Positions 3,736 through 17,411 of a stretch of 64,000 nucleotides of DNA are shown here, piece after piece. Each line of letters begins with the position of its first letter. Within the stretch, counting starts at the first letter, position 1. The notes beneath the pieces were generated by a model. It was not told the DNA's origin. It saw only the letters and a program-made list of their open reading frames with translations, and did no database searches. A program made the position numbers and the translations under genes. The stretch covers positions 1-64,000 of IMG/VR virus record IMGVR_UViG_2822120212_000001. The stretch is one strand, 5' to 3'. Origin of the DNA: an uncultured virus (IMG/VR IMGVR_UViG_2822120212_000001). Lineage: Duplodnaviria; Heunggongvirae; Uroviricota; Caudoviricetes.

Positions 3736-3864
3736 TCAGTTACAGCTAATTTACCCATACTTTGTCGAAGAGAAATAAAAAAGAGAGTCTCCGCTATTGC
3801 AAATGTCATTTTCTTACTCTTATACATTTAATAGTTATGACAAGCAGTCATAGGAGGTGAATGC

Positions 3865-4572
3865 ATGAAAGAAGAAAATACTGTTTTACGTGGAGCAGCT
3901 CTTGAACCAAATTTAGTTGGCCCCACACTACCACCTATACCACCATTTACGTTACCAACGGGACCTACTGGAGCTACAGGAATAACAGGACCCACTGGTC
4001 CGACGGGTCCAACCGGAGTTGGAAGTACTGGAGCAACCGGACCTACGGGAATAACGGGTTCTACTGGTTTAACTGGAGCGACGGGTCCTACAGGACCAAC
4101 TGGCCCCACAGGACCTCGTCTATTTTTTATACCGCTTGCGAGAATACCAGAACCTATAGAACTTTCACCAAATACAGATAATGTTCAAATTATGGAGATC
4201 TTTGTCAATGTACAGGAAGAAAATGATTTCGTCCATTTAAACGCAACGATAGGTACAGAAATTAATATTGATACAGAAAGTAACGATAGTGCTATTTTTA
4301 TTGTGGATAAAATAACGTATCAGTTATTCCGTGAAGATGTGTTATTGGCAGAGTCGGTTGTATCTGCAGACTATAAGGTAAATCTAGTAAATCCACTATA
4401 TACTTTTAATTCTACATTTACATGGGTAGACTTTCCATCTGACCCAGTATTTCCAACAGATCCAGTACGTTATCACATTATAGCTAATATAGGTAATTTT
4501 GATATGGTAATAAGTGCTCAAGTTAGAAATCGAGGGTTTACTGCGGTGATGTTTCCTACCGATCCCATCTAA
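3865..4572 (+). CDS. Collagen-like exosporium protein
   Basis: [24 protein letters not shown] leader, GPT repeats; C-terminal domain paralogous to 24227-24982. Confidence 0.9.
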
Positions 4573-4730
4573 GGATGCCTTTAAAAGAAGTACAATTCTT
4601 ACATTTTCTCTATCACTATTTTTATTATGCAAAAAAGAGAGCCAAATGGCTCTCTTACCATAAATTAGTAAAGTTATGTAAAATTTTACTAATATCAAAT
4701 GGGAATGATTTCTTTTATTATGAAATCAAA

Positions 4731-4850
4731 TCACAATATGTCTTTGTTGCTTTGCAACATTTCCACGTACAAAGAAACTTGTTTAGCGAAACGCCCTTGC
4801 TGACGTCCATCAAGTTTTTCATAATCTCTTTTAATGTCTTTGCAAAATGT
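4731..4850 (-). pseudogene. 3' remnant (..KRDYEKLDGRQQGRFAKQVSLYVEMLQSNKDIL*)
   Basis: Second, diverged copy of the remnant at 3667. Confidence 0.5.
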
Positions 4851-4898
4851 AAAATTACTTAACTATCGAGATCAAGAAAATATTTATATTTTACTAGC

Positions 4899-4980
4899 AA
4901 AAGAAAAGACACCCCAAGGTGCCTTCCTCCGACTTGAACCACTTTAATTTTAATAATATGTATTGGACTCCCATCCAAAT
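4899..4980 (-). repeat. Copy 2 of the sRNA/terminator element, directly 3' of the OLD nuclease gene
   Basis: TTGGA-TGGGAG-TCCAA hairpin ... AAATTAAAGTGGTTCAAGTCGGAGGAAGGCACC-TTGG-GGTGTCTTTTCTTTT. Confidence 0.85.
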
Positions 4981-4981
4981 A

Positions 4982-6691
4982 TTATTTCTCATTCCACCAT
5001 TTTTGTATTTCTTTAATCAAAGGAAAACGTTCAGCTTCTTCCTTTGACATTTTATTTGCAACTTCTACTCCTACCTTAATTTTATTTCCAATTCCAGGTA
5101 TATCACCGAAGTTTCCATAATCCAGAGTTTCTGCTTCTTTACCTAAAACATCTGCTAAAATATCCTTTGGATACATATTTTCTAATGTTCTATAGTCCTT
5201 ATTCATTAAAAATTCAACATTATTTTCAATACACTGATCTTTATAATCTAATTTTATTTGTTTTATTTTCCCTCCTTCTTCTTCAGGTTTAGGTAAATCA
5301 CTATCTATAATGACCATACTTTTTTCATGCAATTTTTTTAAATCTTCTGCAGCAATTTGAAATAGATTATCACCACCAAGAGTGATAATTAATATTCTTT
5401 CCCTCTCTATGTCCAAACCAATTTTTTTTAATAGTATTGGTAAAATTTTCACCTCAGTTGGTCCCTCAACAAATATTATGCCTGCTGCAGAGAGAGCTAA
5501 AGGTAAATAGGCACCTAAAGTACTAAAAACTATCTCTTTATTAGCAATATCAATATCCTGGCAATTGGTTTGATTACCATCGTGTTTAATTAGATATAAT
5601 TTTTCTCTATTTTTCAAGGACTGTAATATAAAAGGAGAATGTGTTGCCAATACCCATTGTATTGAAAATTCACGAGAAATCTTTCTAATTAATTTAATAA
5701 ATCTTTGCTGTAGCATTGGATGCAAACCTATTTCAGGCTCGTCAATAAATACAATATTCATTTTGGAAAAATTATTTAGCACTTTGGCAACGAGAAACAT
5801 AGTATTATAGATTCCATCACCACTTCGGGATAATGGTTGTTCTTTTTCATTTCCATTTTGGTTCCAAATTAAAAATATATCCTCAGATTTCTCATCCCCT
5901 TGAGTCCTATTTATTTCTATTCTTACTAATTCTGGTAGTAAAATCCTGAAATATCCCATGAATTTTTCATGTTTTCCGGAAGTTTTTCCTCTTTCTGAAC
6001 AAATCTCTTTGAAAAAATTAACTAATTGTAATTTTTTATCTTCTTCTTTAATTAAAATTTGTTCGTTACTTCTTGTAACACCTGGAACATATAAGGAATT
6101 CAAATTCTTCATAGAGTCCTTTAATTCAGTGAAAAATGTAATTAGACGGTATAATGTGTTTGAAAAATCATTAATTTTATCATATCCAAAAAACTTTTGA
6201 ACATGATTATTCCAAGATTTTAAATCAACATAAGATTGAAATTCATCAAATGCGCTTTGTCTAAGCGGGAGGGTTAGTAGTATTACTGCGTCTGAAAAAA
6301 ACTGTTTAACCTTTTCTCTTTGAATATCGATCCCTTGGTCATTTAAATCTTTTAATTCTTTTTCAAAATATTGATCTTTATCTACACACTGCCATAGGGT
6401 ATCTAAATCTTCTCTTGTACATTTAAGGGATAATTTGATACATTGTGGGGAGCTATCTAGAGAAAAACCTTTACGATGCTCACTTCCATCCAATAATTTA
6501 GATAATTCTTTATCCATTTGTGTGCCGACATTTATACAACTATTTAAACCTAAAAATGATGCTAATAAAGCTGAGGTTTTCCCTGTATCATTAATTCCCG
6601 ACAGCACAGTAATGTTACTAACATCTAGCTTGAGTAGAGGATTACTTCCAATAGACCTAAAATTACTTATTTCAATACTATTTATATACAT
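4982..6691 (-). CDS. OLD-family ATP-dependent nuclease (ABC-ATPase + TOPRIM), putative anti-phage
   Basis: Walker A GINDTGKT, signature LSRSGDG, Walker B IDEPEIGLHP, ATHS H-loop, TOPRIM VEGPTE and DSD. Confidence 0.85.
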   Translation of the reverse strand: MYINSIEISNFRSIGSNPLLKLDVSNITVLSGINDTGKTSALLASFLGLNSCINVGTQMDKELSKLLDGSEHRKGFSLDSSPQCIKLSLKCTREDLDTLWQCVDKDQYFEKELKDLNDQGIDIQREKVKQFFSDAVILLTLPLRQSAFDEFQSYVDLKSWNNHVQKFFGYDKINDFSNTLYRLITFFTELKDSMKNLNSLYVPGVTRSNEQILIKEEDKKLQLVNFFKEICSERGKTSGKHEKFMGYFRILLPELVRIEINRTQGDEKSEDIFLIWNQNGNEKEQPLSRSGDGIYNTMFLVAKVLNNFSKMNIVFIDEPEIGLHPMLQQRFIKLIRKISREFSIQWVLATHSPFILQSLKNREKLYLIKHDGNQTNCQDIDIANKEIVFSTLGAYLPLALSAAGIIFVEGPTEVKILPILLKKIGLDIERERILIITLGGDNLFQIAAEDLKKLHEKSMVIIDSDLPKPEEEGGKIKQIKLDYKDQCIENNVEFLMNKDYRTLENMYPKDILADVLGKEAETLDYGNFGDIPGIGNKIKVGVEVANKMSKEEAERFPLIKEIQKWWNEK

Positions 6692-10997: not shown

Positions 10998-13019
10998 ATG
11001 GGATTAAATATGAGTTCTCAAAAATTTGGAAGTTTTGAAGATTTAAGCACTACGACTAGACAAAAAATTGAAATGCTAATGAGTAAATTAGATGAGGAAC
11101 AATATACGTATAGTATTTATTATGGTTATCCAATTATTGATGAAAATAATAAAAAAGATTTTGTTAAAGGGATAATTATAAGTGAAAAAGGAATTATAAT
11201 CCTTTACGAAAATCCAGAAGAGAAAAATCTTTATACAACACGCATTTTTCAATTAGTTTCACAAGACTCTTCTTTGTTTGGAATATTAAGGGGTATTGGG
11301 GATTTTATAATAGAATTTAATTTAAATGATTCGAAGATGTTAGAGAACTTAAAACAAGTCCCTCCAAAATTGACCGCAGATATAATTTTGAAGATTAATA
11401 GAGCTGTTCAAATGGCTTATGGTTTAACAAATGAAGATGAACGTGAGTTAAGTAAACCTACAAGCTTAGGGGCCAAGATAAAAGAAAGAAATACATTCAT
11501 AGGGATGTATGATGAAAATCAATTTAATATGATTCATGCTCACCAAAATCAGAATATTCGAGTTCGTGGTTTAGCTGGTAGTGGTAAAACAATTCTAATG
11601 GCTAAAAAAATGGCATACTTGCATTATAAAGATCGAAATAAAAAAATGGCATTCGTTTTTTATACATTGTCCCTTAAACAAACTGTATTGAGATTATTTA
11701 AGCAGTACTATAATGATTATGATAGATATGGTGAGCCTGATTTTAGTAAGATTGATATTTTTCATAGCTGGGGAGGAATGTATAAAAAAGGATTTTATTC
11801 ATTGATAGCCCAATACTCTAATCGGCCATTTTACACCTTAGGTGATGCACAGTCAAAAAAAAATCTTAAGGAAGATCCATATGAATTTGTGTGTAGGGAT
11901 ATTCTTGAAAATGTAAAAGATGAAAATTTAGATTTATATGATTACGTTTTTATAGATGAAGCACAAGATTTTAAAATCAATTTCTTTAAGATGGCAAGAA
12001 AAAGTTTGAAAAAAGATGGCAAGTTAATTTATGCATACGACGAACTACAATCATTAAATGAAGACAATTCTATTCCTCCCAAATCTGAAATATTTGGTAA
12101 TGACGAGTGCATAGATATTAATTTAAAAACTAGTTATAGAGCACCTGTTCAGGTTCTTACAGTAGCACATGCATTGGGATTGGGTATGCATCGGGAAACA
12201 AATGGCGAAGAATTATCCTTTGTAAACATGATTAAAGATAAATCGGTTTGGACTGATGTTGGTTATTATGTAGCAAATGGTAAATTAGAATATGGTGAAT
12301 ATGTTGAACTTGAAAGGAAAGAAGAAAAGGTTCAAGATAACTGTATTGTAAATACTGAAATATGCAACAGTCCAACTGAGCAATATGAAAAACTATCTGA
12401 AAAAATAATTACCCTTATCAAAGAAGAAGATATATTACCAGAAGATATATTAATAATTGATCTAGAAACTCAACAAGTTAATAACAATCATGCAACTTTT
12501 AAGAAGATATTTAATAATTTAGCTCGTAAAAAGGATTTCGTTAAGAATGAAAAGGTTGCAGCTTCAATAAATCTAATAAATAGGGATAATCCCAATGTTG
12601 TTAAAATAAAGGATGCAATACCGTACACTACAATTTTCAGAGCTAAAGGTAATGAGGCGAATATTGTATTTATTGTTAATACGGACACTTTGCAGATGAT
12701 TCAAAGTGTCACTAGGAATAAAATTTTCACTGCTATGACGAGAGCAAGATATGCAGTTTGGCTAATGGGTACAAGAGATATAGAGGCGTATCGAAAAGAG
12801 ATTGAAATTGTTGAAAATAATAATTATATGCTGAAATTCACATACCCATCTGAACAGGAATTAGAAAAAATTAAGACCTACGGAGAAGTAGACAGTAGAA
12901 ACCAAATAAAATTTAATACTGCTGAAAAGTCTTTTGATGAGCTTATAAAATCCAATCCGGACTTAGCAAAATACCTACTCCAGCAAATGCAGTCAAAAGT
13001 TGATGGTTTAGGTGATTAA
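10998..13019 (+). CDS. SF1/UvrD-like helicase of a Helicase-DUF2290-type defence system
   Basis: GLAGSGKT, IDEAQD, TIFRAKGNE, AMTRAR motifs; overlaps the next gene. Confidence 0.85.
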   Translation: MGLNMSSQKFGSFEDLSTTTRQKIEMLMSKLDEEQYTYSIYYGYPIIDENNKKDFVKGIIISEKGIIILYENPEEKNLYTTRIFQLVSQDSSLFGILRGIGDFIIEFNLNDSKMLENLKQVPPKLTADIILKINRAVQMAYGLTNEDERELSKPTSLGAKIKERNTFIGMYDENQFNMIHAHQNQNIRVRGLAGSGKTILMAKKMAYLHYKDRNKKMAFVFYTLSLKQTVLRLFKQYYNDYDRYGEPDFSKIDIFHSWGGMYKKGFYSLIAQYSNRPFYTLGDAQSKKNLKEDPYEFVCRDILENVKDENLDLYDYVFIDEAQDFKINFFKMARKSLKKDGKLIYAYDELQSLNEDNSIPPKSEIFGNDECIDINLKTSYRAPVQVLTVAHALGLGMHRETNGEELSFVNMIKDKSVWTDVGYYVANGKLEYGEYVELERKEEKVQDNCIVNTEICNSPTEQYEKLSEKIITLIKEEDILPEDILIIDLETQQVNNNHATFKKIFNNLARKKDFVKNEKVAASINLINRDNPNVVKIKDAIPYTTIFRAKGNEANIVFIVNTDTLQMIQSVTRNKIFTAMTRARYAVWLMGTRDIEAYRKEIEIVENNNYMLKFTYPSEQELEKIKTYGEVDSRNQIKFNTAEKSFDELIKSNPDLAKYLLQQMQSKVDGLGD

Positions 13020-13713
13020 TGTGGCTAAGACTAAAGAATTAGTTGGTACTTTAGAAAAAGACTTAGTTATAAATCAATTGACTAATTTGTACTTGGTTCA
13101 GGAAAAGATACCTAATATAAATAACAGTAAAATTCCAGAAATTAAAGAAAATAGTGTTGGACGAAGAACTCCGAAGTTTACCAGTAGAACGTATGCGGAA
13201 GTCTATAGAGATATGCTATTTAACGAGAATTATAATTTGTTGTTAAATGATGATTCTATAATTGATTTCCATTATGAATTCAATGATGAAGGGAAAATAA
13301 TAGGGCATAATTTATCATTCATTCCGGGACTTGATGCAGAAATAAGCTTAAATGAAGATATGTATAATATGGAAGATCAAATTATTATTTTAACAACAGC
13401 AACAAATTATCTAAGGATAGATTATGATTTAACAGGAAAAAAGGACATTGTTCACACAGATGTTCATATGCACTATGGTTTGTTTGAAAGAGGAGAAAAA
13501 GGGGAGGGATTACTTTCAGAGCTAAGGGTACCGATAGAAGGTATTTTGTATCCTTATGAGTTTATATATATTGTTCTTAAATATATATATGACGTTAGCG
13601 ATGATGATCTGCAATTCCTGTTAGATTTTGAGTACAGTAAAAAGCATTGTCTTGAAGAATGTGAATTTGATAAACTGATACTTTCCTTTGATAGAAAGTC
13701 CTATCAGTATTGA
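13012..13713 (+). CDS. DUF2290-like protein
   Basis: YLRIDYD...HTDVHMHYG...LRVP motif; coupled to the helicase. Confidence 0.7.
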   Translation: MINVAKTKELVGTLEKDLVINQLTNLYLVQEKIPNINNSKIPEIKENSVGRRTPKFTSRTYAEVYRDMLFNENYNLLLNDDSIIDFHYEFNDEGKIIGHNLSFIPGLDAEISLNEDMYNMEDQIIILTTATNYLRIDYDLTGKKDIVHTDVHMHYGLFERGEKGEGLLSELRVPIEGILYPYEFIYIVLKYIYDVSDDDLQFLLDFEYSKKHCLEECEFDKLILSFDRKSYQY

Positions 13714-13757
13714 ACTGTTTTTGATGTAGTGTTGTTGTATTATGTTTATATTGACAA

Positions 13758-13790
13758 AAAATAAGGTGGCAAATGCCACCTTATTTTTTT
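13758..13790. terminator. Bidirectional intrinsic terminator
   Basis: AAAAAATAAGGTGGC-AAAT-GCCACCTTATTTTTTT. Confidence 0.8.
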
Positions 13791-13981
13791 CTTTTTTACA
13801 CTATTGTTAAAAATATCCACGTGAGGTTCTCGTAAACTTAATTTGTCTATTTTATTTCTATGTCATTTAAGGAACGTTTCTATATGGCTATTCACAAACT
13901 TTCTCAACATTTTTCTGATAACCACACGACTGAATTTTGGCAAAAATATGATATTATGAAAATAATAAAATAAACGGACGT

Positions 13982-14066
13982 AAAAAAGACCCACGGTGCA
14001 AGTAGTGCTGGTAACACTCTTACACTGCCCCTACTACCCTAGGGAACATTGTCGCGGATCTTATAC
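13982..14066 (-). ncRNA. Antisense RNA within the aimR leader
   Basis: Minus strand TGTGT-TATAAT at ~14072-14082; AAGATCCGCG/CGTGGGTCTT closing stem with two inner hairpins and a U-tail. Confidence 0.6.
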
Positions 14067-14097
14067 ATATAATTATAACACACCATAGATTGAGGGT

Positions 14098-14135
14098 GGC
14101 ACGTTTTCCTTTATGGGGTTTACGTGTCTTTTGTT
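14098..14135 (+). terminator. Attenuator-like terminator just upstream of the aimR RBS
   Basis: GGCACGT...ACGTGTC followed by TTTTGTT. Confidence 0.55.
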
Positions 14136-14153
14136 CCGGCAAGGAGGAGCAAA

Positions 14154-15326
14154 ATGAAATATTGGTTATTTAAAGTTGTTGATCAAATTGATTTTCAAAA
14201 AAAGAGCCAAGAGAGTATTTCAAAAGAACTTGGAATAAGTGGCCCTGCGTTTTCAAAGAATTTATCAGGGAAAAGTGAATTGAATTTTTTAAATGTAGTA
14301 AAGTTAGTTGAATTATTATATGAAGATCCGCTTGAAAAGAATTATATGATCCATGAATTTTGTAAAAAAACTAAAAGTAAAAAGAATTTAAGAATAGCTA
14401 TGGAGTATGGAAATGCTTTAGGGGATTTGGAACTCCTTAGAATCGCGATTCAAAGAGGCTTTGAATCTAATAACTCTAAAACTTACGAATGGGCATATAT
14501 ATATGAACTCGTTTGGTTAAGAGCTAAGAAATTTTTTACAGCTGAAAAACTTTTAACGGAGACTGAGAATAGGAAAAAGAGTAAAGTTCTTAAAAATGAA
14601 GAAACTAAAATAATGTTTGATATTTTAACATTATATTCTATGTATGATTGTAGGGATTTTAAACTTTTAGATGGGTATATACAAACATTACAGGAAAAAA
14701 TATCTGAACTTCCTAGCCAATTTATAAAAGATATATACAGTAGCCGTGTAAAGGAATGGTATGCGTATGCATTGCTAATGGACGAGCAAATAGAAAAATC
14801 AAGAGAACTATGCCATAGTATATTGAATGTTAATGATGAATTAGGTTATTTAAGGTTATTAAAAATTTCTGCATTAGGATATTTAGGTGAATCATACGTT
14901 GAAAATTATGAACAATCTTTATGGTATTTAAATAAAGGGATTGAGATGCTAGACCAACTATCTTATGAGAAAGCAGAAAACCGAAAAAAAGAGTTTTTAA
15001 ATATGAGGTCTTACATTAGAATAATCCATCAAAAGGATATGTATGATTTACAAATTTTTGATGTGGGCGAGAAAGCGCTTCTATATATAGTAACAGGAGA
15101 AAAAGAAAAAGCTGCCACTATATTAAGAAAGTACGAAAAAGAGAATGGTAGTCTGTCTCCAATGAAATTATGTTATTTAGGAATGGCATTGGAAGATAGA
15201 AAATTACTAGAAAAATCAATTGAGTTATTCTACTCGCAAGGGTGTAAATTTTATAGTTATTTACCTCGAAAAATATTGGTAGATATTAATGAAAATGGTA
15301 TAATATACAAGGGTGATGCTAAATGA
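14154..15326 (+). CDS. aimR: Arbitrium receptor (HTH + TPR, RRNPP family)
   Basis: N-terminal HTH, KKNLRIAMEY motif, helical repeats; followed by a secreted peptide gene; next to the repressor; AAGGAGG RBS. Confidence 0.85.
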   Translation: MKYWLFKVVDQIDFQKKSQESISKELGISGPAFSKNLSGKSELNFLNVVKLVELLYEDPLEKNYMIHEFCKKTKSKKNLRIAMEYGNALGDLELLRIAIQRGFESNNSKTYEWAYIYELVWLRAKKFFTAEKLLTETENRKKSKVLKNEETKIMFDILTLYSMYDCRDFKLLDGYIQTLQEKISELPSQFIKDIYSSRVKEWYAYALLMDEQIEKSRELCHSILNVNDELGYLRLLKISALGYLGESYVENYEQSLWYLNKGIEMLDQLSYEKAENRKKEFLNMRSYIRIIHQKDMYDLQIFDVGEKALLYIVTGEKEKAATILRKYEKENGSLSPMKLCYLGMALEDRKLLEKSIELFYSQGCKFYSYLPRKILVDINENGIIYKGDAK

Positions 15327-15478
15327 AAAAAGTACTAGCTTTAGTAACAACTTTGGCTTTAGTCGGAGTACTATATGTATCTCCTGTTAAAGGTCAAAAG
15401 GAGCAGCCTAAACAAGTAGCAAAGGATGCTCAAACTCAAATTATGCTTAGAATGGACCCAGGGACAGGAATGGGATAA
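15323..15478 (+). CDS. aimP: Arbitrium pro-peptide MKKVLALVTTLALVGVLYVSPVKGQKEQPKQVAKDAQTQIMLRMDPGTGMG (51 aa; absent from the ORF track)
   Basis: ATGA overlap with aimR stop, signal peptide, C-terminal DPG/Gly-rich peptide. Confidence 0.85.
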   Translation: MKKVLALVTTLALVGVLYVSPVKGQKEQPKQVAKDAQTQIMLRMDPGTGMG

Positions 15479-15510
15479 TTTTCTGGTTAAGGGTTCGATA
15501 TAAATAGATT

Positions 15511-15545
15511 GAATGCGATTGTCTCTTAATGGGGCAATCGCATTC
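15511..15545 (+). promoter_or_regulatory. Inverted repeat between aimP and aimX (terminator or AimR-controlled site)
   Basis: GAATGCGATTGTCTC-TTAAT-GGGGCAATCGCATTC. Confidence 0.65.
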
Positions 15546-15644
15546 GCTGTTTATAGGGGGATTAACTAAATTTCAAAATTAAATATTAGTTATACATTGT
15601 GATAAATTCACAAACTACTATGAAAATATCGGAGGATGTTGGTG

Positions 15645-15782
15645 ATGGAACAAAATACAATCGAAAAAGAGTTAATCGAAGTTGAAGGTAATCTACAAGG
15701 AATCTTTAATGCGGCTCATAATGGGGATGCTGAGTCTTATGAAATTCTTTTGAAAATAAAAGAGGCGATCGGTAGCATTTAA
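15645..15782 (+). CDS. aimX: AimX-position small ORF (45 aa), convergent with the repressor
   Basis: GGAGG RBS, MEQNTIEKELIEVEGNLQGIFNAAHNGDAESYEILLKIKEAIGSI; called from position only. Confidence 0.55.
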   Translation: MEQNTIEKELIEVEGNLQGIFNAAHNGDAESYEILLKIKEAIGSI

Positions 15783-15787
15783 CGCTA

Positions 15788-16138
15788 TCAATCGCCTGAT
15801 ATTTTAACTAGTTGTTTTATCATTTCAATAAGTTCTTTTTGTTTATCAGGATTCTTAGATCGAATATCTATCATTACTTGTTCTAAGTCATCCTTAGCTG
15901 TTAATTCAGGATTCTTCTCATCGGATTCACCTAATACATAAGAAACGGATACATTTGCGAGTTTAGCTATATCTAAAGAAGTTTTTCTCGATGGACATTT
16001 ATCTATTTCTTCGTTCTCCCACATAGATACAGCAGATTTACTTTTTAGTCCTAGTGCGTTAATGAATTCAGATTGGCTCATTTTGAGTATTTCCGTTCTG
16101 ATTTCTTTAACCCTTTTACTAATCAATTGATGATTCAT
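15788..16138 (-). CDS. CI-like XRE repressor (no peptidase domain)
   Basis: HTH MSQSEFINALGLKSKSAVSMWEN; divergent from a cro-like gene. Confidence 0.85.
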   Translation of the reverse strand: MNHQLISKRVKEIRTEILKMSQSEFINALGLKSKSAVSMWENEEIDKCPSRKTSLDIAKLANVSVSYVLGESDEKNPELTAKDDLEQVMIDIRSKNPDKQKELIEMIKQLVKISGD

Positions 16139-16230
16139 CAGTTTTCTCTCCTTTATAGAAGTCCCGTCTACTATTATCTTTTACTTTTTTTCATTAACTA
16201 TAGTCAATATATATAAAATTTAACAGGAAA

Positions 16231-16590
16231 GTTCACTCAAAGACAACCTTTTTAAGTTTATAGAAAAAAATAAATTTCGTTGTTCACAAAAAGTGAACGT
16301 TGTGTTATTATCAAATTAACGAAAAGAACAAAGGTGATAAACATGAAACTAAATATCGAAAAGGCCAAATCGTTACGCAAGAAACGTGGTTATAGTCAGG
16401 CTTATGTAGGTGATTATCTTGGTTACTCAACAAAATCCGCTTATTCACAACTTGAATCTGGCAAGAGACAACCAAGTATATACAGATTGGGTTTGTTGTC
16501 TAAATTGTATGATGTTACAGTTGATGAATTAGTAGAAAGTTAACGAAAAGTTAACTATTATTTTTAACTAAACGTTCACTTTTTGTGAAC
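16231..16590. promoter_or_regulatory. Operator set GTTCAC-N5-GTGAAC
   Basis: Copies at 16231-16247 (degenerate), 16282-16298, 16539-16555 (GTTAAC variant), 16574-16590. Confidence 0.75.
16343..16543 (+). CDS. Cro-like XRE regulator
   Basis: 66-aa HTH, AGGTG RBS. Confidence 0.85.
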   Translation: MKLNIEKAKSLRKKRGYSQAYVGDYLGYSTKSAYSQLESGKRQPSIYRLGLLSKLYDVTVDELVES

Positions 16591-16607
16591 TGAGAGGAGG
16601 AAAGAAA

Positions 16608-17411
16608 ATGAAGCAGTTACAGGTTTTCAATCATCAAGAATTTGGAGCGTTAGAGGTTATACACCTTAACGGTAAGGAAATTTTCAATCTTGAAAATGTA
16701 GCGTGGTCACTTGGATATACGAAAGTGGCAAAAGGGAAAACTTATCTTCGAAAAGATCGTATCGAGAAAGTCATCCAAAAAGCTGATATATCAGTAATTG
16801 TCCACGATGGACAACCATACATTACCGAAGATGGATTGTATGAGCTGATTTTCGAATCAGAAACTCAGAAAGCAAAAGAATTTCGAAAATGGGTAACAAG
16901 CGAAGTGCTACCTTCTATTAGAAAACACGGAGCATACATGACGCCGAAAACAATCAACGCCCTACTTCAAGATCCAGACTTAATTATCGGTCTTGCATCA
17001 CAACTGAAGCAGGAACAACAAGCTAGACAGATTGCAGAGCAAAAGAATCTTATGTTAACACAACAAATTGCAGAAAACGCATCAAAGATTACATACCTAG
17101 ATCAAATTCTTCAATCGCAAGATACAGTAACAGTTTCGCAGGTTGCAGCTGACTATGGTTTGTCAGCAATGAAGCTTAATAAAATCCTAAATGATGAAAA
17201 AGTACAGTACAAAGTAAATAATCAATGGTTACTTTACTCTAAACACCAAAACAAAGGTTACACAAAATCGAAAACAGTTGATGTAGTGCATACAGATGGT
17301 AGTAGATCAGTGAAAATGAATACTCGTTGGACGCAAAAAGGAAGACTTTTCATCCACGAACTTCTAACGAAACGCGGAATCATTCCAGAAATGGATAGGG
17401 AGGCGGTTTAA
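16608..17411 (+). CDS. Phage antirepressor (Bro-N + ANT/KilA-C)
   Basis: FRKWVTSEVLPSIRKHGAY and TRWTQKGRLFI motifs. Confidence 0.9.
   Translation: MKQLQVFNHQEFGALEVIHLNGKEIFNLENVAWSLGYTKVAKGKTYLRKDRIEKVIQKADISVIVHDGQPYITEDGLYELIFESETQKAKEFRKWVTSEVLPSIRKHGAYMTPKTINALLQDPDLIIGLASQLKQEQQARQIAEQKNLMLTQQIAENASKITYLDQILQSQDTVTVSQVAADYGLSAMKLNKILNDEKVQYKVNNQWLLYSKHQNKGYTKSKTVDVVHTDGSRSVKMNTRWTQKGRLFIHELLTKRGIIPEMDREAV

What the first reader, a model, noticed from the sequence alone, without database searches (positions are those of the whole stretch)
13930..14153. aimR leader carries its own antisense-RNA attenuator, an extra RNA layer on arbitrium
Seen: + strand TG-A-TATTAT promoter (~13949-13957), a ~190-nt leader and a terminator (14098-14135) just before the aimR RBS; ACGTAAA (13978-13984) could pair with TTTACGT (14119-14125) as an antiterminator; a minus-strand TGTGT-TATAAT promoter gives a ~85-nt three-stem RNA ending in a U-tail. 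Inference: AimR is made in a burst on entry into a naive cell and then silenced as the antisense RNA accumulates, which would give a timer or RNA-based superinfection control separate from the peptide. I know of no description of this for arbitrium, but cannot check the literature here.
Basis: partly seen in the sequence, partly recalled or inferred. Interest (0 to 1): 0.8.

Follow-up and report, generated by a model that had tools for sequence, protein, structure and literature searches.

The report
Antisense RNA switch guarding phage aimR
In front of the gene for the peptide-signal receptor that Bacillus cereus-group phages use to choose between killing and dormancy lies a conserved small RNA gene on the opposite strand, next to a terminator-like hairpin, which looks like a plasmid-style RNA brake on the receptor that has not been described for this signalling system.

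Summary
An ~84-nt RNA gene (13982-14065, minus strand) with its own extended -10 promoter lies wholly inside the ~190-nt aimR leader. It has a closing stem plus U6 tail and two hairpins. All 45 of 45 distinct homologues fold to the same three-way junction. The minus strand is always the more stable one. 13 of 36 pairs show compensatory changes. Rfam has no match.

The leader DNA stays 71-98% identical between phages whose AimR proteins are only 27-30% identical. The leader also carries a terminator-like hairpin with a U-tract (14098-14135), and a hairpin that pairs this U-tract with the ribosome-binding site.

The 5' arm of the terminator and its flank imitate the 5' part of the small RNA. They can therefore pair with the small RNA's target, and this helix co-varies in five sequence groups. 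Terminator and antiterminator folds are near-isoenergetic.

Best reading: countertranscript-driven attenuation of aimR, as in pIP501, pT181 or pCF10. Nothing shows transcription, termination or timing directly. One clade keeps the RNA but lacks the terminator consensus. I found no description in the searchable literature.

The parts
13866..13906 (.). Conserved nested inverted repeat upstream of the aimR promoter (consensus TTGAGAAAC..GTTTCTCAA; the left arm is degenerate in the window). Possibly an operator.
   Evidence: Alignment consensus. The function is inference only; no binding protein was identified.
13947..13957 (+). aimR promoter: -16 TATG, then -10 TATTAT (13952-57). Expected start ~13964.
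   Evidence: TGATATTATGA is invariant in 6 of 6 aligned leaders. The start site is inferred from spacing.
13964..14153 (+). aimR 5' leader (~190 nt), non-coding.
   Evidence: No conserved ORF: the median longest ORF is 15 aa (+) and 16 aa (-) in 52 distinct leaders.
13969..13992 (+). 5' leader arm of the outer antiterminator helix (AAUAAACGGACGUAAAAAAGACCC). It pairs with the terminator's 3' arm and U-tract, and its 3' half is covered by the tail of the small RNA.
   Evidence: Forced and near-optimal folds. AAACGGACGU is near-invariant. A switch is predicted in the phage-250-like subgroup.
13982..14065 (-). Small RNA gene, ~84 nt. P1 closing stem (14061-14053 with 13996-13988), P2 and P3 hairpins, U6 tail (13987-13982).
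   Evidence: Covariance-model hit 13982-14061 minus, 61 bits. Folds. Pair counts. The 5' end is inferred from promoter spacing.
14041..14055 (+). Leader arm of the inner antiterminator helix (AGGGAA..UGUCGC), inside the small RNA's target. It pairs with 14096-14110.
   Evidence: cognate pairing in five groups.
14072..14082 (-). Small-RNA promoter: -16 TGTG (14082-14079), then -10 TATAAT (14077-14072). No good -35.
   Evidence: TGnTATAAT is present in 57 of 58 sequences.
14096..14135 (+). Terminator-like hairpin T (14098-14104/14122-14128, inner stem 14107-10/14115-18) plus U-tract 14129-35. Its 5' arm and flank imitate the 5' part of the small RNA.
   Evidence: -12.9 kcal/mol, z -4.3; the lower stem is kept in 34-36 of 36, with wobble changes only..
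14129..14154 (+). Hairpin that pairs the U-tract (14129-37) with the end of the Shine-Dalgarno sequence and the spacer (14146-54). SD AAGGAGG lies at 14141-47.
   Evidence: -11.4 kcal/mol, z -3.1. Present in 34 of 38 distinct segments; the other 4 were mis-picked by my script. Arm changes are compensated between groups.
14154..15326 (+). aimR (390 aa).
   Evidence: Pfam AimR PF22871, E 2.6e-42.
15323..15478 (+). aimP-like 51-aa ORF with a signal-peptide-like N-terminus, overlapping the aimR stop codon.
   Evidence: Position and size match the arbitrium layout described in 10.1101/2025.11.23.689978 (abstract and passages). No Pfam hit.

Best explanation
The aimR leader is a countertranscript-controlled attenuator.

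Two facing extended -10 promoters lie about 100 bp apart. One makes the aimR mRNA, starting at ~13964. The other makes an ~84-nt structured antisense RNA (14065->13982) that is fully complementary to leader nucleotides ~+19 to +102.

On its own, the nascent leader can adopt an 'on' fold:
- The 3' part of the antisense target (14041-55) pairs with the terminator's 5' arm and flank (14096-14110).
- The extreme 5' leader (13969-92) pairs with the terminator's 3' arm and U-tract (14115-35).
- No terminator forms, and the U-tract is kept away from the ribosome-binding site.

The antisense RNA probably makes first contact through its two hairpin loops. Once bound, it covers both upstream arms. The terminator hairpin (14098-14128 plus U-tract) then forms and transcription stops before aimR. 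Transcripts that still read through have their Shine-Dalgarno region paired with the U-tract. AimR output would therefore fall as the antisense RNA accumulates.

Shown in silico: the RNA gene, its strand and fold, the conserved promoters, both hairpins and the competing helices.
Inferred: transcription itself, termination, and the order and direction of the switch.
For: 1. Structured minus-strand RNA.
- 45 of 45 distinct cores fold independently to P1+P2+P3 plus a U-tail. Mean energy is -37.8 kcal/mol against -25.1 for the plus-strand complement, and the minus strand is more stable in 45 of 45.
- 93.7% of pair cells are paired, against 33-52% in slid registers. 13 of 36 pairs change on both sides, against at most 5 when slid.
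- P1 has 9 pairs, 3 of them compensatory and none broken.
- The covariance model gives exactly one hit in each of 58 of 58 sources.

2. Promoter and tail. TGnTATAAT is present in 57 of 58. The U-tail is invariant, entropy 0.05 bits.

3. Strong constraint. The aligned parts of the leader DNA are 71-98% identical, while downstream AimR is only 27-30% identical in phages 250, LY4, phBC6A52 and Athena.

4. It is non-coding and matches nothing in Rfam.

5. Terminator and SD hairpins are stable: z -4.3 and -3.1. Their variation is of the G-U wobble type expected for a plus-strand RNA.

6. Coupling between target and terminator.
- In nascent-transcript folds, 13-14 of 16 terminator-5'-arm bases pair with the antisense target in 21 of 40 distinct leaders, and 11 of 16 in one more.
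- The duplex energy is -12 to -20 kcal/mol in the 32 of 34 distinct pairs that my script parsed correctly. Mean z over all 34 is -2.75 against shuffles.
- The terminator flank matches its own group's P1' strand best. The diagonal mean is -7.25 against -4.85 off-diagonal, the best of all 120 permutations of five groups.

7. Bistability.
- Window: terminator fold -36.8, antiterminator folds -35.9 and -34.1 kcal/mol. With the target masked, only the terminator fold remains.
- In 37 distinct leaders, ddG averages -0.1 (sd 1.9), with 34 of 37 within 3 kcal/mol.
- Controls: shuffled upstream +2.8, reversed upstream +4.2.

8. Masking the target raises the terminator probability from 0.00-0.19 to 0.80-0.98 in 10 leaders of the phage-250-like subgroup.

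9. The same logic is established for pIP501 RNAIII/repR (PMC4981023, abstract and passages) and for pCF10 Anti-Q (PMC3181467, abstract and passages).
Against: - No direct evidence for either transcript, its strand, its ends or termination. The only expression data are unstranded contigs of RNA libraries.
- At equilibrium the terminator already forms with probability 0.84 in the window, and 0.94-0.99 in 21 of the 25 LY4-like and L027-like leaders, whether or not the target is masked. In two more (L003, L052) my script could not place its stem. The switch would therefore have to be kinetic.
- The terminator's lower stem shows wobble changes only, with no double compensatory change.
- 13 of the 52 leaders listed (the Athena/Waukesha92-like group) keep the small RNA and the SD hairpin but lack the terminator consensus.
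- The bistability control is modest: half of the shuffled leaders also fall within 3 kcal/mol, and the 37 leaders are related to each other.
- The window's own group shows no cognate preference in the full-duplex test.
- The two antiterminator arms are also a DNA inverted repeat centred on the small-RNA -10 box, which could be a protein operator.
- A U-tail directly after the closing stem of a three-way junction is an unusual terminator shape.
Confidence: 0.55

Rival explanations
1. The antisense RNA represses aimR without any attenuation switch. Either the long perfect duplex is cut by RNase III and the mRNA decays, or the two facing promoters interfere with each other. The hairpin at 14098-14135 would then be a constitutive leaky terminator or insulator that simply keeps AimR low.
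For: - The overlap is an ~84-bp perfect duplex between convergent promoters.
- At equilibrium the terminator forms regardless of masking in the window and in most LY4-like and L027-like leaders.
- The Athena/Waukesha92-like group keeps the RNA but not the terminator consensus.
- RNase III-dependent control of the receptor mRNA by an opposing RNA is documented for pCF10 prgX (PMC3181467). Convergent-promoter effects are documented for pIP501 (PMC4981023).
Against: This does not explain three observations:
- The terminator's 5' arm and flank imitate the 5' part of the small RNA and track it across five groups.
- The extreme 5' leader, which lies outside the overlap, is near-invariant and complementary to the terminator's 3' arm and U-tract.
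- The two folds are near-isoenergetic.
Confidence: 0.2
2. The small RNA mainly acts in trans, on another phage or host transcript or on a protein. It would be an immunity RNA like P1 c4 or P4 CI, and its overlap with the aimR leader would be secondary.
For: - Its compact closed three-way-junction shape with two exposed loops resembles, from recall, the phage immunity RNAs c4 and CI.
- The loops are hypervariable: 33 different P2 loops and 15 different P3 loops in 46 sequences, as expected of specificity determinants.
- It is kept in a clade that lacks the terminator consensus.
Against: - It lies just upstream of aimR on the opposite strand in all 58 homologous leaders (which were collected through that leader). 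The same holds in 8 of 12 further aimR loci chosen through the AimR protein, where the other 4 have no hit.
- There is no extended complementarity elsewhere in the 64-kb window: no 12-mer, and one 11-mer against 2.4 expected. Imperfect pairing was not tested, because timed out.
- Hypervariable loops would need a co-varying trans target, whereas a cis target co-varies automatically.
Confidence: 0.1
3. The conserved features are DNA sites rather than RNA elements. The inverted repeat 14041-55 / 14096-14110 and the upstream repeat 13866-13906 would be operators for a phage regulator, and the apparent RNA folds would be by-products.
For: - The arms are symmetric around the small-RNA -10 box (my reading).
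- From recall, AimR of SPbeta binds widely spaced inverted repeats.
- An operator just upstream of the sense promoter is part of the pIP501 design.
Against: - The strand asymmetry is strong: the minus-strand fold is 12.6 kcal/mol more stable on average, in 45 of 45, with many G-U pairs. A DNA palindrome would not produce this.
- Compensatory changes occur inside P1-P3, which are not palindromes around one centre.
- The U-tail, the U-tract and the SD pairing make sense only as RNA.
- The regulators differ greatly between phages (27-30% AimR identity), while these sequences stay the same.
Confidence: 0.05

Closest known systems
Antisense-RNA transcription attenuation in Gram-positive plasmid copy control (pIP501 RNAIII/repR; pT181 and pAMbeta1 from recall)
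   Same: - A cis-encoded structured countertranscript is made from a promoter that faces the sense promoter.
- Its target lies in the 5' leader.
- An intrinsic terminator sits just before the ribosome-binding site.
- Two hairpin loops are available for first contact.
- A conserved inverted repeat lies just upstream of the sense promoter, where pIP501 has its CopR operator.
(PMC4981023, abstract and passages.)
   Different: - The controlled gene is a peptide-signal receptor of a phage, not a replication initiator.
- The RNA is ~84 nt and closed into a three-way junction, against 136 nt for RNAIII.
- There is no sequence or Rfam relationship.
- Attenuation is not shown here.
pCF10 prgQ/prgX RNA circuit of Enterococcus faecalis (Anti-Q and Qs)
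   Same: - A peptide-signalling system of the same receptor superfamily (AimR and PrgX as RRNPP-type receptors: from recall) is combined with overlapping convergent transcripts.
- Anti-Q blocks read-through of the opposing operon without host proteins.
- The receptor mRNA itself is repressed by the opposing RNA.
(PMC3181467, abstract and passages.)
   Different: - In pCF10 the small RNAs are the 5' ends of the two operons, and the receptor mRNA is cut by RNase III.
- Here a dedicated small RNA gene lies inside the receptor's own leader, and the predicted mechanism is termination.
- There is no sequence similarity.
Phage immunity RNAs: P4 CI and P1/P7 c4
   Same: - Small, compact, stem-closed RNAs of temperate phages or plasmid prophages.
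- They act by RNA-RNA pairing in a leader.
- P4 CI causes premature termination.
- c4 loop differences define heteroimmunity.
   Different: - Those RNAs are cut out of the sense transcript and act on repeated sites.
- This one has its own antisense promoter and a fully complementary cis target.
- The hosts and sequences are unrelated.
The antisense idea already in arbitrium: the aimX transcript running opposite to the repressor gene aimC
   Same: Same locus type. The window has the extended aimR-aimP-aimX-aimC-aimL layout, as described in 10.1101/2025.11.23.689978 (abstract and passages).
   Different: - That antisense lies downstream of aimP and targets the repressor, and the preprint finds that a small AimX protein does the work.
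- The RNA here lies upstream, targets aimR itself and is non-coding. The preprint has no occurrence of 'upstream of aimR' or 'UTR'.
RnaG/icsA of Shigella flexneri
   Same: A chromosome- or virulence-plasmid-borne cis-antisense RNA that promotes premature termination of its target mRNA (PMC2879508; only the start of the abstract was seen, in the listing).
   Different: Different organism and gene class, and no sequence relationship was tested.

Membership tests
Countertranscript-driven transcription attenuators (pIP501/pT181 type) | A cis-encoded antisense RNA with its own promoter, convergent with the target promoter | tested here: met
   TGnTATAAT on the minus strand in 57 of 58 sequences. 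A facing TRTGnTATTAT on the plus strand is invariant in 6 of 6. Transcription itself was not observed.
Countertranscript-driven transcription attenuators (pIP501/pT181 type) | The antisense RNA folds into stable stem-loops that present loops for first contact | tested here: met
   Three-helix fold in 45 of 45. 93.7% of pair cells paired and 13 of 36 pairs compensatory. Two variable apical loops.
Countertranscript-driven transcription attenuators (pIP501/pT181 type) | An intrinsic terminator in the leader, between the antisense target and the ribosome-binding site | tested here: inconclusive
   A hairpin plus U-tract is present in the window and in the 36 distinct distal leaders aligned. The consensus is absent in 13 of the 52 leaders listed (the Athena/Waukesha92-like group). 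No termination data exist.
Countertranscript-driven transcription attenuators (pIP501/pT181 type) | An alternative (preemptor) pairing that excludes the terminator and uses the antisense target | tested here: met
   In silico only, and the control effect is modest.
Countertranscript-driven transcription attenuators (pIP501/pT181 type) | The antisense RNA increases premature termination of the target transcript | not testable with these tools
   This needs in vitro transcription or Term-seq with and without the RNA.
Arbitrium system (extended aimR-aimP-aimX-aimC-aimL module) | An AimR receptor gene followed by a short secreted-peptide gene, then an oppositely oriented HTH repressor and a cro-like gene | tested here: met
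   AimR Pfam hit, E 2.6e-42. A 51-aa ORF at 15323-15478. An HTH_3 protein at 15788-16138 (-). An HTH-like 87-aa ORF at 16280-16543 (+). Peptide processing and signalling were not tested.
Any curated RNA family (Rfam 15) | A covariance-model match | tested here: not met
   0 matches at E <= 1 over 12000-17000, both strands.
Type I toxin-antitoxin (antisense RNA opposite a small toxin ORF) | A conserved small ORF opposite the antisense RNA | tested here: not met
   The window's 30-aa plus-strand ORF is not conserved. The median longest ORF is 15 aa in 52 distinct leaders, with differing frames and sequences.

The most novel reading that the evidence does not exclude
The antisense RNA gives arbitrium phages an intracellular genome counter on top of the extracellular peptide counter.

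Both inhibitor and target are made from every phage genome copy. AimR output per cell would therefore saturate or fall as the copy number rises, through multiplicity of infection, replication or plasmid-prophage copy number. This is how plasmids sense their own copy number.

The hypervariable P2 and P3 loops would define RNA specificity groups. Co-resident arbitrium phages would then not silence each other's receptor, while a resident prophage could silence aimR of an incoming phage that carries the same loops, an RNA-based homo-immunity. B. cereus-group strains that carry AimR average 2.8 homologues each (10.1101/2025.11.23.689978, passage).
Probability: 0.25. Interest if true: 0.85.

Novelty: new variant of a known kind. 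Interest (0 to 1): 0.7.

Why it matters
Arbitrium is the model for communication between viruses. Current models treat AimR as simply 'made early' and put all regulation into the peptide and AimX.

A conserved RNA brake on aimR would set how much receptor is present. That would set the peptide threshold and the timing of the lysis-lysogeny decision, and it could add copy-number sensing and phage-specific cross-immunity.

The element is more conserved than the receptor gene itself. It occurs in experimentally used phages such as Waukesha92, so it can be tested directly. It would also define a new RNA family, and it explains at least one doubtful protein annotation: the 'ribonuclease' CDS over the element in phage CUBc25.

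Tried and rejected
- Rfam scan of 12000-17000: no match. tRNA/tmRNA scan of the whole window: none.
- The simple terminator scan did not list the 14098-14135 hairpin, because its loop is too long for that scan.
- The search for related loci with the AimR protein gave only 2 loci. I used blastn against phages and plasmids and a pattern scan instead.
- 60 of the 123 pattern-bearing loci were chance matches and were dropped before all counts.
- RNAalifold on plain MAFFT alignments recovered only P1 and part of the terminator, because P2, P3 and the SD hairpin were misaligned. I therefore used alignment-free folds and a covariance-model alignment, which is fitted to the model and so leans towards it.
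- RNA libraries: all 24 runs are kept as contigs. In the four I laid, contigs cover 13887/13896 to 15600. In one fragmented run the summed word depth is 3852-5567 over 14002-14135, against about 190-850 over most of aimR. Contigs give no strand, ends or reliable level, so I draw no conclusion.
- A duplex scan of the whole window for imperfect trans targets timed out. The exact-word scan found nothing above chance.
- Small-ORF and type I toxin reading: rejected.
- My regex mis-parsed 2 of 34 entries and 4 of 38; these are named where used.

Full report
**Context.** The finding lies directly upstream of a 390-aa gene that matches Pfam AimR (PF22871, E 2.6e-42). After it come:
- a 51-aa aimP-like ORF that overlaps the aimR stop codon;
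- a strong terminator at 15510-15546;
- a 48-aa ORF at 15636-15782;
- an oppositely oriented HTH_3 gene at 15788-16138;
- a cro-like ORF at 16280-16543.

This is the 'extended' arbitrium layout aimR-aimP-aimX-aimC-aimL of a 2025 preprint (10.1101/2025.11.23.689978; abstract and passages read). Upstream, a two-gene plus-strand operon ends at 13713, with a terminator at 13756-13789. The aimR leader is therefore a separate transcription unit.

- Plus strand: TATG-A-TATTAT at 13947-57, a leader of about 190 nt, and a hairpin 14098-14128 followed by UUUUGUU (-12.9 kcal/mol, z -4.3).
- Minus strand: TGTG-T-TATAAT at 14082-14072, and an 84-nt RNA 14065-13982 that folds into a closing stem P1, two hairpins P2 and P3, and a U6 tail (-35.1 kcal/mol, z -4.4).
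- The plus-strand complement of the same stretch folds no better than shuffles (z -0.8 over 13960-14160).

**It is conserved and always sits in front of aimR.**
- blastn found the stretch in 16 phage records and 65 plasmid records, all Bacillus. It lies in unannotated DNA next to aimR-like genes.
- A motif scan of viral contigs, together with the five phage and genome loci fetched earlier, gave 123 loci that hold the pattern. 63 were true homologues and 60 were chance matches, which I dropped.
- A covariance model built from 45 distinct cores gave exactly one hit in each of 58 of 58 sources, always on the strand opposite to aimR.
- I ran the model on 12 further aimR loci that blastn had missed or only partly matched. 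It found the RNA in 8: Waukesha92, BMBtp3, PfNC7401, CUBc25, PHBA67-J, PHBA67-T and phBC6A51 at 41-79 bits, and phIS3501 weakly at 21 bits.
- It found nothing in B83, BMBtp16, the Wbeta-like J5a or the SPbeta-like BUCT082.
- The element is thus widespread in B. cereus-group arbitrium phages, both plasmid-like and integrating, but not universal. I did not see it in the one B. subtilis phage tested.

**The leader is more conserved than the gene it precedes.** The aligned parts of the leader DNA are 71-98% identical. AimR itself is only 27-30% identical in phages 250, LY4, phBC6A52 and Athena. No ORF is conserved in the leader: the median longest ORF is 15-16 aa in 52 distinct leaders. Rfam has no match.

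**It is an RNA, and it is on the minus strand.**
- All 45 distinct cores fold on their own into the same P1/P2/P3 junction with a U-tail.
- The minus strand is more stable than the plus-strand complement in 45 of 45 (mean -37.8 against -25.1 kcal/mol). This reflects many G-U pairs, which would be A-C mismatches on the other strand.
- On the model-fitted alignment, 93.7% of pair cells are standard pairs, against 33-52% in slid registers. 13 of 36 pairs carry changes on both sides, against at most 5 when slid. That alignment leans towards the structure, but the alignment-free folds agree.
- The U-tail is invariant and the stems vary little (0.5-0.66 bits). The two apical loops are close to saturated: 1.8 and 1.27 bits, 33 and 15 different loops, and 44 combinations among 46 sequences.

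**The rest of the leader.** Two plus-strand hairpins follow the antisense target.
- The terminator-like hairpin keeps its 7-bp lower stem in 34-36 of 36 distinct sequences. Only A-U/G-U wobble changes occur, which fits a plus-strand RNA but is not true covariation.
- Its U-tract is also the 5' arm of a second hairpin, whose 3' arm is the end of the Shine-Dalgarno sequence and the spacer up to the A of the start codon (-11.4 kcal/mol, z -3.1).
- This second hairpin is present in every correctly extracted segment (34 of 38; the other four were mis-picked by my script). Its arms change in a compensated way between groups: UUGUCC/GGACAA, UUGUUCC/GGAGCAA and UUGUUCC/GGAACAA.

**How the small RNA is coupled to the terminator.** This is the main new result.
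- The terminator's 5' arm and its flank resemble the 5' part of the small RNA (end of the P1 5' strand, the junction, and the P2 5' arm). They can therefore pair with the same leader segment that the small RNA binds.
- In folds of the nascent transcript, cut just before the terminator's 3' arm, 13-14 of 16 bases of that arm pair with the antisense target in 21 of 40 distinct leaders, and 11 of 16 in one more.
- The predicted duplex is -12 to -20 kcal/mol in the 32 of 34 pairs that my script parsed correctly. Mean z over all 34 is -2.75 against shuffles.
- The variable flank follows the variable P1 strand in five sequence groups. Cognate pairs average -7.25 kcal/mol and non-cognate pairs -4.85. 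The observed assignment is the best of all 120 permutations. One group ties, and in the full-duplex test the window's own group shows no preference.
- The extreme 5' leader (AAUAAACGGACGUAAAAAAGACCC) lies mostly outside the overlap yet is near-invariant. It is complementary to the terminator's 3' arm and U-tract.

**Energies of the two folds.**
- In the window, the terminator fold is -36.8 kcal/mol and the antiterminator folds are -35.9 and -34.1. With the antisense target masked, only the terminator fold remains.
- Across 37 distinct leaders the two states differ by -0.1 kcal/mol on average (sd 1.9), and 34 of 37 lie within 3 kcal/mol.
- Controls are less balanced but overlap: +2.8 (sd 3.95) with shuffled upstream sequence and +4.2 with reversed upstream sequence.

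**Limits.**
- Equilibrium folding already gives the terminator a probability of 0.84 in the window, and 0.94-0.99 in 21 of the 25 leaders of two large groups, whether or not the target is masked. In two more of these leaders my script could not place the terminator stem.
- Only the phage-250-like subgroup shows a clear thermodynamic switch, from 0.00-0.19 to 0.80-0.98. Control would therefore have to be kinetic, as it is in the plasmid systems.
- The Athena/Waukesha92-like group (13 of the 52 leaders listed) keeps the small RNA, the imitating segment and the SD hairpin, but lacks the terminator consensus.
- The two antiterminator arms also form a DNA inverted repeat around the small-RNA -10 box.
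- No tool here could show transcription. The RNA-library contigs cover the leader and aimR but give no strand, ends or level.

**Comparison with known systems.**
- The design matches antisense-RNA attenuation in pIP501 point by point, although attenuation itself is not shown here. Shared features are the facing promoters, a structured countertranscript with two loops, a terminator in the leader, and even a repeat where pIP501 has its CopR operator (PMC4981023).
- It also recalls pCF10, where a peptide-signalling circuit uses Anti-Q to stop read-through and an opposing RNA to repress the receptor mRNA (PMC3181467).
- Phage P4 CI and P1/P7 c4 immunity RNAs are similar in spirit (recalled, not read).
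- The differences are the controlled gene (the arbitrium receptor), the small closed three-way-junction RNA, and the double lock that links the terminator U-tract to the ribosome-binding site.

**Literature.** Searches combining arbitrium or aimR with antisense, small RNA, attenuation and related terms listed only the aimX-versus-aimC antisense idea in the papers whose passages I read, and unrelated papers (passages). The 2019 survey that reported RNA-seq of B. cereus-group arbitrium phages is not in the library. Its figures or supplements could already show this transcript.

**Verdict.**
- The small RNA is real with high probability (about 0.9).
- It controls aimR in cis with good probability (about 0.75).
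- The specific attenuation mechanism is the best-supported model (about 0.5).
- The timer, superinfection and copy-counting readings remain open.

Noticed in passing
window 10998-13713 (+): A two-gene operon just upstream of the arbitrium locus. It encodes a 673-aa UvrD-like helicase (PADLOC 'Helicase' PDLC03002, E 2.7e-98) and a 233-aa DUF2290 protein (PDLC02999, E 1.1e-16). It looks like a candidate anti-phage defence pair carried by the phage.
   Followed up: partly
window 13866-13906; consensus in alignment A1: A nested inverted repeat (TTGAGAAAC-CGTTGATATATAACG-..-GTTTCTCAA) is conserved 60-100 bp upstream of the aimR start site in relatives. Its left arm is degenerate in the window. It may be an operator, at the position where pIP501 has its CopR site.
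   Followed up: no
window 14110-14114 versus relatives (alignment A5): The window's terminator hairpin lacks about 12 nt of the apical loop that 35 of 36 aligned relatives carry (..TATATGTAACAAAT..). This makes its hairpin more compact. In some groups this loop contains UGUAAGA, which resembles the small RNA's P3 arm.
   Followed up: partly
L135 579-761 (phage vB_BcM_CUBc25): A CDS annotated 'ribonuclease' (183 nt, + strand) lies over the small-RNA hit (679-765 minus, 73.9 bits). The annotation is probably a spurious ORF call on the non-coding leader.
   Followed up: partly
window 15636-15782 (+): A 48-aa ORF between the aimP terminator and the end of the HTH repressor gene, at the position where the 2025 preprint places the small AimX antirepressor. 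It was not compared with known AimX proteins.
   Followed up: no
L122 (viral contig) leader: An apparent recombinant. Its antisense target is of the LY4-like type, but its terminator flank is of the L027-like type. Pairing is still possible through G-U wobble.
   Followed up: no
L013 and L018 (two viral contigs with the same genome number in their names): Two copies of the element from what appears to be one host genome belong to different sequence groups, with different P1 strands and loops. This fits the idea that co-resident phages carry non-cross-reacting versions, but it is a single case.
   Followed up: no
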